31,326 nucleotides of DNA from an uncultured bacterium (GTDB lineage Bacteria; Planctomycetota; Planctomycetia; Pirellulales; UBA1268): NCBI GenBank assembly GCA_937959175.1, contig CALGAS010000257.1, positions 1-31,326 of the forward strand, in the 5' to 3' direction. The notes beneath the pieces are model-generated. The model saw nothing but the letters and a program-made list of their open reading frames with translations, did no database searches and was not told where the DNA came from. Position 1 is the first letter of the stretch. Each line of letters opens with the position of its first letter. Made by a program: the position numbers and the translations under genes. This document shows, one piece after another, positions 17,363 to 17,450 of this stretch.

Positions 17363-17381
17363 ATGGCAAGGAGCCATTTTC

Positions 17382-17450
17382 ATGGCCAAGAAGAAGAAGA
17401 AGGCTGCCAAGAAGGTCGCCAAGAAGAAGAAGAAGAAGGGCCACGGCTGA
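17382..17450 (+). CDS. Unannotated 22-aa lysine-rich peptide MAKKKKKAAKKVAKKKKKKGHG
   Basis: ATG 17382 and TGA 17448-50. SD AAGGAG at 17368-73 (8-nt spacing). Upstream -35 and downstream terminator. Below the ORF-track length cut-off. Confidence 0.75.
   Translation: MAKKKKKAAKKVAKKKKKKGHG

What the first reader, a model, noticed from the sequence alone, without database searches (positions are those of the whole stretch)
17368..17450. Hidden 22-aa poly-lysine peptide gene with its own promoter, SD and terminator
Seen: an ORF MAKKKKKAAKKVAKKKKKKGHG (13 of 22 residues Lys, no acidic residue), a strong SD AAGGAG at 8-nt spacing, a consensus TTGACA with an AT-rich upstream tract, and a 14-bp terminator. 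This is a complete monocistronic unit in a 600-bp gap that gene callers would leave empty. Known: planctomycetes have condensed nucleoids, Lys/Ala-rich repeats are the DNA-binding feature of H1-like bacterial proteins such as chlamydial Hc1/Hc2, and very short basic ribosomal proteins exist (bS22, bTHX, eL41). Inference: a minimal protamine/H1-like nucleoid-compacting peptide, a polyamine substitute, or a tiny ribosomal protein, encoded about 5.5 kb from the candidate origin.
Basis: partly seen in the sequence, partly recalled or inferred. Interest (0 to 1): 0.88.

Follow-up and report, generated by a model that had tools for sequence, protein, structure and literature searches.

The report
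Conserved polylysine micro-gene of Planctomycetia
This is a real, transcribed but unannotated 22-codon gene for an almost pure lysine/alanine peptide, with its own promoter, RNA pseudoknot leader and invariant terminator; its family is kept across the planctomycete class Planctomycetia, and the peptide most likely acts as a tiny histone-H1-like polycation that coats nucleic acids.

Summary
The ORF is at 17382-17450, the SD at 17368-17373, TTGACA at 17205-17210, and a 14-bp terminator at 17601-17636.

It is a gene, not a chance ORF or a plain microsatellite:
- All 20 same-genus loci and 9 of 12 sampled genera of the family keep the same SD, ATG, frame and stop.
- The order Pirellulales and a sister family of the class carry an equivalent unit with Lys/Ala ORFs of 11-105 codons.
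- Metatranscriptome contigs cover only about 17256-17644 and not the flanking genes.

The leader forms an H-type pseudoknot that is strongly supported by covariation. The 46-nt 3' element (17591-17636) is invariant across nine genera.

It is not a lysine-sensing attenuator. In 15 of 20 order-level loci the next gene is convergent, and rlmM synteny was seen only in this family.

Function is inferred, not shown. Three things favour a non-specific H1/Hc2-like nucleic-acid polycation over a fixed ribosomal micro-protein: exclusive Lys use (13 K, 0 R) in a proteome with 2.1% K and 8.7% R, (V/A)AKKK pentamer expansion to 41-67 aa within the same family, and a continuous length range.

No protein, RNA or literature resource searched describes it. 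This scan has already found the same unit in other genomes.

The parts
17185..17201 (+). A/T-rich tract upstream of the -35 box (UP-element-like)
   Evidence: Read from the sequence. An A/T-rich tract at the same position is present in all 20 genus relatives and in other families.
17205..17210 (+). -35 box TTGACA
   Evidence: The string cTTGACAGTTTT is invariant in 20 of 20 genus loci. Other families carry TTGCA at the equivalent place.
17229..17234 (+). Lineage-type -10 box CACAAC, 18 nt after the -35
   Evidence: Conserved in 20 of 20 genus loci. Other families have GTACAAnTA. The TATAAT-based scan did not recognise it. Its role as a -10 box is inferred.
17241..17645 (+). Monocistronic transcript of about 400 nt. 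The 5' end is predicted near 17241; RNA contigs start at 17256-17258 and reach 17644.
   Evidence: RNA-run contigs lie at 17257-17584, 17256-17598 (an adapter sequence directly precedes it), 17258-17417 and 17561-17644. Depth is zero on 17000-17242 in all four runs, and zero beyond 17647 in three of the four. The MFE is -205 kcal/mol, z = -6.7 against shuffles.
17242..17297 (+). Variable 5' hairpin of the leader
   Evidence: MFE fold. The sequence is poorly conserved, with 0.49 pairwise identity, but a hairpin occupies this position in relatives.
17303..17362 (+). H-type pseudoknot. Stem 1 pairs 17303-17315 with 17329-17341. Stem 2 pairs 17321-17328 with 17355-17362. It ends 5 nt before the SD.
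   Evidence: Counted on 44 distinct family sequences. Stem 1 has 13 pairs, 11 with changes on both sides, 92.6% paired. Stem 2 has 8 pairs, 5 with changes on both sides, 100% paired. 0 of 500 shuffles reach the observed values, and slid controls pair only 40-51% of cells.
17368..17373 (+). Shine-Dalgarno AAGGAG, 8 nt before the ATG
   Evidence: AGGAGCC is invariant in 44 of 44 family sequences, and the base before it is A in 41. Other families have GGAGGA followed by 6 nt and GTG.
17382..17450 (+). 22-codon ORF for the Lys/Ala peptide (13 K, 0 R, 0 D/E)
   Evidence: Pairwise identity in the genus is 0.93. Variable sites in the first 16 codons are three third positions (all synonymous) and two second positions. 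Family peptides are 18-27 aa, and 41-67 aa in one genus.
17456..17582 (+). Structured 3' UTR with four hairpins: 17456-17492, 17506-17525 (UUCG loop), 17526-17549 and 17555-17582
   Evidence: RNAalifold on 20 genus sequences predicts 44 pairs, 18 of them with compensatory changes. The MFE fold agrees. Length varies between genera, with 67-200 nt from the stop to the 3' motif.
17591..17636 (+). Invariant 3' element: a single-stranded CAGACGAGAAAG run followed by the 14-bp G+C-rich terminator hairpin
   Evidence: The sequence is identical in every locus shown from 9 genera apart from single-base changes: the first base in L059, the second in L008, one loop base in L019. There is no compensatory change in any stem pair. 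The CGAGAAAG motif with the base of the stem recurs across the order. The motif is not repeated elsewhere in the genome.
17637..17645 (+). T run of the intrinsic terminator
   Evidence: An RNA contig ends at 17644.
17689..18810 (+). Downstream FtsJ/RlmM-like rRNA 2'-O-methyltransferase gene. It is a neighbour, not part of the unit.
   Evidence: Pfam FtsJ E = 2e-10. NCBIfam RlmM E = 2e-10, below that model's cut-off. None was found within 5 kb of the micro-gene in 20 loci from other families.

Best explanation
A strong sigma-70-type promoter (TTGACA, 18 nt, CACAAC, with an upstream A/T tract) drives a highly structured monocistronic mRNA of about 400 nt. A leader hairpin and an H-type pseudoknot sit just upstream of a strong SD. 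They probably tune translation initiation or mRNA stability, possibly through feedback by the product. That role is inferred.

The 22-codon ORF is translated into a peptide of about +13 charge made only of Lys, Ala, Val, Gly and His. A chain of 3' hairpins and an invariant intrinsic terminator end the transcript before the rlmM-like gene.

The peptide is the product that matters. It most likely acts like the Lys/Ala tails of histone H1 and of chlamydial Hc1/Hc2: an unstructured polycation that binds the phosphate backbone of DNA (and RNA) without sequence specificity, neutralises charge and helps compact or coat it.

Shown here: conservation, transcript limits, RNA structures and composition bias. 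Inferred: translation, the binding target and the regulatory role of the pseudoknot.
For: It is a gene:
- ORF, SD, start and stop are kept in 20 of 20 genus loci found by DNA similarity of the whole gap.
- They are kept in 45 of 61 genomes of the family (9 of 12 genera). The genera that missed the pattern carry longer versions.
- The SD-start-Lys pattern is in 207 of 301 genomes of the order, against 0 for the control. A sister family of the class has it too.
- Pairwise identity is 0.93 for the ORF, against 0.48 for the 3' UTR and 0.49 for the leader hairpin.

It is transcribed as its own unit:
- RNA-library contigs from three studies cover about 17256-17644 only.

It is a polycation rather than a folded or pocket-binding protein:
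- The peptide has 13 K and 0 R, while the genome's long ORFs have 2.1% K and 8.7% R.
- Genus g19 of the same family has 41-67 aa forms built by (V/A)AKKK pentamer expansion, with the same SD and terminator.
- 107 K-rich members from a scan of all species genomes range continuously from 11 to 105 aa.
- Hc2 varies in just this way, through lysine-rich pentamers (PMC2848022).
- The nearest named ESM-Atlas clusters carry Pfam HC2.

It is not a switch for neighbouring genes:
- In 15 of 20 order-level loci the next gene is convergent.
- The neighbours are unrelated housekeeping genes.
Against: - There is no direct evidence of translation, and none for any binding target.
- There is no sequence match to Hc1/Hc2 or to any Pfam, NCBIfam or PDB entry. 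Kinship with H1-like proteins is therefore compositional only.
- HU/IHF-family genes are present in all 21 relatives checked, so there is no obvious vacancy for a nucleoid protein.
- The Lys codons are almost frozen as AAG, and the 3' element is invariant. That is more constraint than a simple polycation gene needs, and it hints at an RNA-level function.
- Within this family the peptide core, with its Ala and Val positions, is very constant. This would also fit a specific binding site.
- In this family the gene sits next to an rRNA methyltransferase gene.
Confidence: 0.5

Rival explanations
1. A ribosome- or rRNA-associated micro-protein, working like bL37, bS22, bTHX or eL41. The basic peptide would sit in or on rRNA, and its pseudoknot leader would give ribosomal-protein-style feedback on its own translation.
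For: - The size and charge match known tiny ribosomal proteins. bL37 is 24 aa, has a helical N-terminus, is buried near H89 and the peptidyl transferase centre, and was also missed by annotation (PMC5876184).
- In this family the gene lies directly before an FtsJ/RlmM-like 23S rRNA methyltransferase gene.
- The family core sequence is very constant.
- The unit has a strong promoter and SD and lies near dnaA/dnaN.
- Pseudoknot leaders are known autoregulatory sites of ribosomal protein mRNAs such as S15 and S4 (general knowledge, not tested here).
Against: - Length ranges from 11 to 105 aa, and expands to 41-67 aa within the same family by pentamer repeats. This is hard to fit into a fixed rRNA pocket.
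- There is no Arg, His or aromatic mix of the kind seen in known tiny ribosomal proteins (general knowledge); this family is nearly Lys-only.
- There is no NCBIfam or PDB sequence match.
- No rlmM homologue was found within 5 kb in 20 loci of other families.
Confidence: 0.17
2. The RNA is the main functional product. It could be a dual-function or 3'-UTR-derived regulatory RNA whose invariant 3' element (a single-stranded CAGACGAGAAAG run plus hairpin) is a seed or a protein-binding module. Translation of the poly-Lys ORF would be secondary, or would serve as a sensor.
For: - The 46-nt 3' element is invariant across 9 genera without any compensatory change. The CGAGAAAG motif with the base of the stem is conserved across the order.
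- The transcript is far more structured than shuffles, z = -6.7.
- Synonymous AAG/AAA sites are nearly frozen.
- The pseudoknot has invariant unpaired bases.
Against: - The ORF, SD, spacing, start and stop are the best conserved block apart from the terminator.
- ORF length changes always keep the Lys frame, and the interruptions between Lys runs are whole Ala or Val codons.
- No Rfam family matches.
- Complements of the 3' single-stranded motif are not enriched in the genome.
- 3' UTR length and hairpin number vary freely between genera.
Confidence: 0.12
3. A polycation aimed at another polyanion or at a surface, not at nucleic acid. Candidates are polyphosphate granules, acidic membranes or envelope polymers, or a released cationic peptide.
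For: The evidence here establishes only the charge and the composition. No target was tested.
Against: - There is no signal peptide and no hydrophobic face, so export or membrane insertion is unlikely (read from the sequence).
- No transporter or modification genes are linked to it in any of the neighbourhoods examined.
Confidence: 0.08
4. A lysine-sensing leader peptide, that is, a transcription attenuator controlling the rlmM-like gene downstream.
For: - A run of one codon type lies upstream of a terminator and a co-directional gene, which starts only 45 nt after the T run.
- One RNA-run contig, at depth 2.7, spans the terminator.
Against: - The stop-to-terminator distance varies from 67 to 200 nt, and the space is filled with independent covarying hairpins. 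A ribosome on the ORF cannot reach the terminator.
- The terminator shows no conserved alternative pairing.
- In 15 of 20 loci from other families the next gene is convergent.
- No rlmM homologue was found near the unit in other families.
- An rRNA methyltransferase has no link to lysine supply.
Confidence: 0.03
5. Not a gene: an (AAG)n microsatellite that happens to be open in one frame.
For: Slippage of a trinucleotide repeat gives 3-nt indels whether or not the repeat is coding, so that criterion alone does not discriminate.
Against: - SD, spacing, start codon, in-frame Ala and Val interruptions and the stop are conserved from genus to class level.
- It has a dedicated promoter and terminator, and RNA evidence supports transcription.
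- There is one copy per genome, and it is the most Lys-dense ORF in this assembly.
Confidence: 0.02

Closest known systems
Chlamydial histone-H1-like proteins Hc2 (HctB) and Hc1 (HctA)
   Same: - Lys/Ala-rich, strongly basic and of low complexity.
- Size varies through gain and loss of lysine-rich pentamers (Hc2: PMC2848022). Here (V/A)AKKK units take the family from 18 to 67 aa.
- The host belongs to the same PVC superphylum (general knowledge).
- Long members fall next to Pfam HC2 clusters in the ESM Atlas.
   Different: - It is 5 to 10 times smaller: 18-27 aa in this family, against 165-237 aa for Hc2.
- There is no match to the Pfam HC2 or Hc1 models, and no separate N-terminal domain.
- It has its own pseudoknot leader and an invariant terminator.
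- DNA binding is untested.
Other bacterial H1-like Lys/Ala repeat proteins and domains (Pseudomonas AlgP, Bordetella BpH1, the N-terminal domain of Streptomyces DdbA)
   Same: AKK-type repeats are used as a non-specific DNA-binding, nucleoid-shaping module. DdbA is documented in PMC3643593; the others are from general knowledge.
   Different: In those proteins the repeats are tails or domains of larger proteins. Here the repeat is the whole protein.
Tiny basic ribosomal proteins bL37, bS22, bTHX and eL41
   Same: They are 24-33 aa and very basic, are often missed by annotation, and are lineage-restricted. bL37 is 24 aa, lies in an rRNA pocket near H89, and occurs only in high-G+C Actinobacteria (PMC5876184).
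   Different: - Those proteins have fixed lengths and mixed Arg, Lys and His sequences (general knowledge).
- This family is Lys-only, varies from 11 to 105 aa, and gives no NCBIfam or PDB hit.
Leader peptides of transcription attenuators (his, trp, leu)
   Same: A short ORF with a run of one codon type lies upstream of an intrinsic terminator.
   Different: - No alternative antiterminator pairing was seen.
- The spacer is variable and long.
- The downstream gene is convergent or unrelated in most lineages.
Pseudoknot leaders of autoregulated ribosomal-protein mRNAs (E. coli rpsO/S15, alpha operon/S4)
   Same: An H-type pseudoknot lies directly upstream of the SD of a gene for a small basic nucleic-acid-binding protein (general knowledge for the comparators; for this leader).
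   Different: There is no sequence or Rfam similarity. Binding of the product to its own leader is untested.

Membership tests
Hc2/HctB histone-H1-like nucleoprotein (Pfam PF07382) | Sequence match to the family model | tested here: not met
   hmmscan against Pfam at E <= 1 gave 0 families for the 22-aa peptide and for five longer members of 29-104 aa.
Hc2/HctB histone-H1-like nucleoprotein (Pfam PF07382) | Lys/Ala-rich pentamer repeats whose number varies between close relatives | tested here: met
   Genus g19 of the same family has 41-67 aa forms built from (V/A)AKKK units, against 18-27 aa elsewhere. Members across the order span 11-105 aa.
Hc2/HctB histone-H1-like nucleoprotein (Pfam PF07382) | Binds and condenses DNA | not testable with these tools
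   Needs EMSA or condensation assays, or in vivo localisation.
Hc1/HctA (Pfam PF07432) | Conserved N-terminal domain and match to the model | tested here: not met
   No Pfam hit. The peptide has no room for a separate domain.
Tiny ribosomal proteins (bL37, bS22, bTHX) | Sequence match to annotated or solved members | tested here: not met
   NCBIfam gave 0 families at E <= 1. PDB chain sequences gave 0 hits at E <= 10.
Tiny ribosomal proteins (bL37, bS22, bTHX) | Fixed length and a specific sequence fitting an rRNA pocket | tested here: not met
   Length is 18-67 aa within one family and 11-105 aa in the order.
Tiny ribosomal proteins (bL37, bS22, bTHX) | Physical presence in purified ribosomes | not testable with these tools
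   Needs mass spectrometry or cryo-EM of a Pirellulales ribosome.
Leader-peptide transcription attenuator | Alternative terminator/antiterminator pairing coupled to ribosome position on the ORF | tested here: not met
   The stop-to-terminator spacer is 67-200 nt and is filled with independent covarying hairpins. The terminator arms are invariant and pair only with each other.
Leader-peptide transcription attenuator | A co-directional regulated operon downstream, conserved with the leader | tested here: not met
   In 15 of 20 order-level loci the next gene is on the opposite strand. No rlmM or ino1 homologue lies within 5 kb.
Rho-independent (intrinsic) terminator | G+C-rich hairpin followed by a T run, with RNA 3' ends at that place | tested here: met
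   14 pairs followed by TTTTT. An RNA contig ends at 17644, and three of four RNA runs show no coverage beyond 17647.
H-type RNA pseudoknot | Two crossing helices supported by covariation | tested here: met
   Stem 1 has compensatory changes in 11 of 13 pairs and stem 2 in 5 of 8. 94% of cells are paired, against 40-51% in slid controls. 0 of 500 shuffles reach the observed values.
Any Rfam family | Covariance-model match | tested here: not met
   There were no matches at gathering score in the window. Only chance-level hits (E >= 0.3) appeared in 17000-17800. No tRNA or tmRNA was found.

The most novel reading that the evidence does not exclude
Planctomycetia encode, from an unannotated and strongly transcribed mini-gene, the smallest known dedicated chromatin or nucleic-acid-coating protein of any cell. 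It would be an 18-27 aa 'bacterial protamine' made of H1-type AKKK repeats. Its dosage would be set by a new pseudoknot leader, possibly through feedback by the peptide itself, together with a sequence-invariant 3' RNA module. It would contribute to the condensed nucleoids for which this group is known.
Probability: 0.3. Interest if true: 0.85.

Novelty: new variant of a known kind. Interest (0 to 1): 0.7.

Why it matters
If the peptide is made, an entire bacterial class carries a conserved, probably abundant polycation that no genome annotation lists. Ten members, including N-extended readings, are absent from a collection of 15 billion proteins.

- It would be a minimal natural model for how Lys/Ala repeats neutralise and compact nucleic acids.
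- It offers a concrete candidate for the long-noted condensed nucleoid of planctomycetes.
- It is a reminder that genes of about 20 codons can be core genes.
- The leader pseudoknot and the invariant 3' element are two new conserved RNA motifs with unknown partners.
- Cultured relatives that carry the unit, such as Aeoliella sp. SH292, make all of this directly testable.

Tried and rejected
Database searches that gave nothing:
- The search for homologous proteins refuses queries under 40 aa. A 78-aa member gave no hit, probably because of composition filtering.
- Exact look-up of 10 members, including N-extended readings, found none on record.
- Pfam, NCBIfam and PDB sequence searches gave nothing.
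- Rfam, tRNA and tmRNA searches gave nothing.
- Five literature searches found no description of such a gene in planctomycetes.

Structures and ORFs considered and rejected:
- A hairpin presenting the SD in its loop (ATGG/CCAT) has no compensatory change and is only 86% paired. It is not supported.
- Alternative pairing of the pyrimidine arm of stem 1 with the SD was considered by eye. It was dropped because that arm covaries with its stem 1 partner instead.
- A long-range 5'-3' pairing (leader ACGTCG with the 3' GACGAG) offers only 4-5 bp and cannot be tested because both sides are invariant.
- Overlapping ORFs at 17357-17638 (+, 93 aa) and 17114-17587 (-, 157 aa) are not kept in relatives, because the UTRs carry indels that are not multiples of 3.

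Other negative or uninterpretable results:
- Genome-wide search for complements of the 3' single-stranded motif found only scattered sites: one other 12-mer, nine other 11-mers and 29 other 10-mers. They were not examined further.
- The motif ACGAGAAAGR is not a dispersed repeat.
- Synteny with rRNA or RNA enzymes as a functional clue holds only locally. This family has rlmM-like, and 3 of 20 order-level loci have ThiI-like and RNase III. In 11 of 20 loci the neighbour is a convergent Mrp/NUBPL ATPase.
- A second run search with the long-form locus of Aeoliella returned RNA runs, but the low-complexity words make them uninterpretable without laying reads. The single read-laying run was already spent.
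- HU/IHF is present in every genome checked, so 'replacement of a missing nucleoid protein' is rejected.

Full report
**1. The observation**

- The ATG is at 17382 and the TGA at 17448-17450. The 22 codons give 13 Lys, no Arg and no acidic residue.
- AAGGAG lies at 17368-17373, 8 nt before the ATG.
- TTGACA lies at 17205-17210, behind an A/T-rich tract.
- A hairpin of 14 pairs sits at 17601-17636, followed by TTTTT.

The unit lies in a 600-bp gap between an ino1-like gene (stop at 17088) and an FtsJ/RlmM-like methyltransferase gene (ATG at 17689). G+C drops to about 0.5 across the promoter, leader and ORF, in a 68.5% G+C genome.

The consensus promoter scan found no TATAAT box. A lineage-specific box, CACAAC, 18 nt after the -35, is conserved instead.

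**2. It is a conserved gene**

A DNA search with the whole gap found the region in 21 of 24 genomes of the same genus.
- All 20 loci fetched keep AAGGAGCC, the spacing, the ATG, the Lys frame and a stop. The commonest product is 20 aa, and the range is 20-23 aa.
- Pairwise identity in the genus is 0.93 for the ORF and 0.97 for the terminator element. It is 0.48-0.49 for the 3' UTR and the leader hairpin, and 0.37 upstream of the promoter.
- In the first 16 codons of 38 family sequences only five sites vary. Three are third positions and all three are synonymous. Two are second positions, giving Val/Ala and Ala/Asp.

Within the family, 9 of 12 sampled genera match a strict SD-ATG-Lys pattern, with peptides of 18-27 aa. 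Genera that missed the pattern do have the unit. Genus g19 carries the same SD and a 93-95% identical terminator, but its ORF is 41-67 aa, built by (V/A)AKKK pentamer expansion and ending in GHA.

Indels in multiples of 3 are not in themselves proof of coding, because a trinucleotide repeat slips in threes anyway. The stronger evidence is the conserved SD, start, stop and whole-codon Ala and Val interruptions.

**3. Wider distribution**

Other families of the order carry an equivalent unit. Each has:
- a TTGCA/TACAAC-type promoter with an A/T tract;
- a long leader;
- GGAGGA followed by 6 nt and a GTG start;
- a Lys/Ala ORF;
- a 3' UTR;
- a CGAGAAAG motif running into the base of a terminator hairpin.

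The SD-start-Lys pattern is found in 207 of 301 genomes of the order (118 of 161 genera). The reversed control is found in none.

A sister family of the same class has the same kind of unit, with ORFs of 22-103 aa. In the rest of the phylum the pattern hits only ordinary proteins that happen to start MAKKK, such as bL33.

- 107 hold K-rich ORFs, ranging continuously from 11 to 105 aa.
- 75 of those have the CGAGAAAG motif downstream.
- The titles shown name almost only Planctomycetota, mostly Pirellulales (Aeoliella, Lacipirellula, Mariniblastus, Pirellula, Thermoguttaceae).
- The non-planctomycete hits are unrelated proteins.

**4. Transcription**

Metatranscriptome runs hold the conserved part of the locus. 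Logan contigs from four RNA runs were laid on 17000-17800.
- Contigs lie at 17257-17584 (depth 27), 17256-17598 (an adapter sequence directly precedes it), 17258-17417, 17401-17590 and 17561-17644.
- Depth is zero on 17000-17242 in all four runs, and zero beyond 17647 in three of them.
- DNA contamination would have covered the flanking genes as well.

The data therefore support a monocistronic RNA of about 390-400 nt, running from just after the predicted start (about 17241) to the T run.

One low-depth contig (2.7) spans the terminator into the rlmM-like gene. That gene starts only 45 nt after the T run, so some read-through may feed it.

The strain seen in the RNA runs is about 97% identical to the window and carries an extra in-frame AAG.

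**5. RNA structure**

The transcript folds far better than shuffles (-205 kcal/mol, z = -6.7).

On 44 distinct family leaders an H-type pseudoknot is strongly supported.
- Stem 1 (17303-17315 with 17329-17341) has compensatory changes in 11 of 13 pairs.
- Stem 2 (17321-17328 with 17355-17362) has compensatory changes in 5 of 8 pairs and is 100% paired.
- 0 of 500 shuffles reach the observed values. Slid controls pair only 40-51% of cells, against 94% for the structure.

The pseudoknot ends 5 nt before the SD. A small hairpin that would present the SD in its loop is not supported.

The 3' UTR holds covarying hairpins. Their number and length differ between genera.

The last 46 nt (17591-17636) behave differently. 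Apart from single-base changes in three loci, they are identical in all loci shown from nine genera, with no compensatory change in any stem pair. That is more constraint than a terminator needs, and it remains unexplained. The motif is not a dispersed repeat.

**6. It is not an attenuator, and the neighbours give no functional clue**

In 20 loci from other families no rlmM or ino1 homologue lies within 5 kb.
- In 15 of 20 the next gene is on the opposite strand.
- The commonest context is lpxB, an M50 peptidase and an unknown gene, then the micro-gene, facing a convergent Mrp/NUBPL-type ATPase (11 of 20) and a sigma-54 activator.
- A smaller group has an aminotransferase upstream, with ThiI-like and RNase III genes downstream.

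Synteny therefore reflects descent, not a shared pathway.

**7. What the peptide most likely does**

The genome's long ORFs contain 2.1% Lys and 8.7% Arg. The peptide has 13 Lys and no Arg, so Lys itself is selected for, not just positive charge.

Three features match the C-terminal tail of histone H1 and the bacterial H1-like proteins: Lys/Ala composition, pentamer repeats whose number drifts between close relatives, and a continuous length range. Hc2 of Chlamydia varies through exactly such lysine-rich pentamers (PMC2848022). The nearest named clusters in the ESM Atlas carry Pfam HC2.

These features fit poorly with a peptide locked in an rRNA pocket. bL37, for example, is 24 aa with a helical N-terminus and is buried near H89 (PMC5876184).

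I therefore favour a non-specific nucleic-acid-coating polycation (0.5) over a ribosomal micro-protein (0.17).

Membership in Hc1/Hc2 or in any known family is not supported. There is no Pfam, NCBIfam or PDB match. HU/IHF genes are present in all 21 relatives checked, so the peptide would add to the usual nucleoid proteins rather than replace them.

The frozen AAG codons and the invariant 3' element keep an RNA-centred role alive (0.12).

**8. Novelty and earlier findings**

Ten family members are absent from a collection of 15 billion proteins. No Rfam family and none of five literature searches describes the unit.

This scan has already reported the same unit in other genomes. I re-tested those reports independently on this window's family.
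- Agreeing: the pseudoknot leader, the invariant terminator, the Pirellulales range and the rejection of the attenuator idea.
- New here: the metatranscriptome limits of the transcript; the pentamer expansion within the family; the Lys/Arg contrast with the proteome; the class-level range; and a more sober view of the gene neighbourhood.

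Noticed in passing
window 7365-13085 (- strand): gyrB (7365-10022), dnaN (10333-11478) and a dnaA-like ORF (11982-13085) lie 4.3-10 kb upstream. Only the C-terminal DnaA helix-turn-helix domain of the dnaA-like ORF scores in Pfam. The 500-bp gap at 11479-11981 is a candidate origin region. It was not analysed.
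   Followed up: partly
window 17637-17689: The FtsJ/RlmM-like gene starts 45 nt after the terminator T run, which leaves no room for an obvious promoter of its own. One RNA-run contig (17574-17800, depth 2.7) spans the terminator, so the gene may depend on read-through from the micro-gene promoter.
   Followed up: partly
window 17591-17636 and loci L041-L067: The 46-nt 3' element is sequence-invariant across nine genera, with only single-base changes in three loci and no compensatory change in the stem. It is built of nested palindromic hexamers and octamers. The reason for this degree of constraint is unknown.
   Followed up: partly
window 17385-17438 and family loci: Lys codons are almost always AAG, although AAA makes up 13% of Lys codons genome-wide. 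Lower-G+C families use AAA freely. This may reflect high expression or avoidance of slippery A runs.
   Followed up: partly
G000 contigs C599 (about 2029-2385), C243 and C550: The same genome encodes other proteins with Lys/Ala/Thr-rich tracts: a 119-aa protein with an AKKT-repeat middle and a small C-terminal domain, a protein of about 60 aa with a K-rich tail, and a larger protein with a long K-rich C-terminal tail. They were not characterised.
   Followed up: no
loci L072-L089 (other Pirellulales families): A conserved block spans many families: lpxB, an M50 peptidase and an unknown protein of about 268 aa, then the micro-gene, facing a convergent Mrp/NUBPL Fe-S ATPase, an unknown protein of about 170 aa and a sigma-54-type activator.
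   Followed up: partly
one search matches, e.g. G277:C9, G139, G272, G234, G147: Some genomes of the order hold two copies of the unit, with different SD-to-start spacers (CGGACT against CGTACG or CGTAGC). This suggests old paralogues.
   Followed up: no
L080 and L081, about 100 nt before the start: By eye, the leaders of another family also show crossing complementarity (TGTCG/CGACA interleaved with CTTCC/GGAAG, inside a closing GGCGAC/GTCGCC stem). A pseudoknot may therefore be general in the order. This was not tested by covariation.
   Followed up: no
L022 (G027:C94): A long K-rich ORF in this relative is interrupted by a withheld stretch that reads N, so its length could not be read.
   Followed up: no
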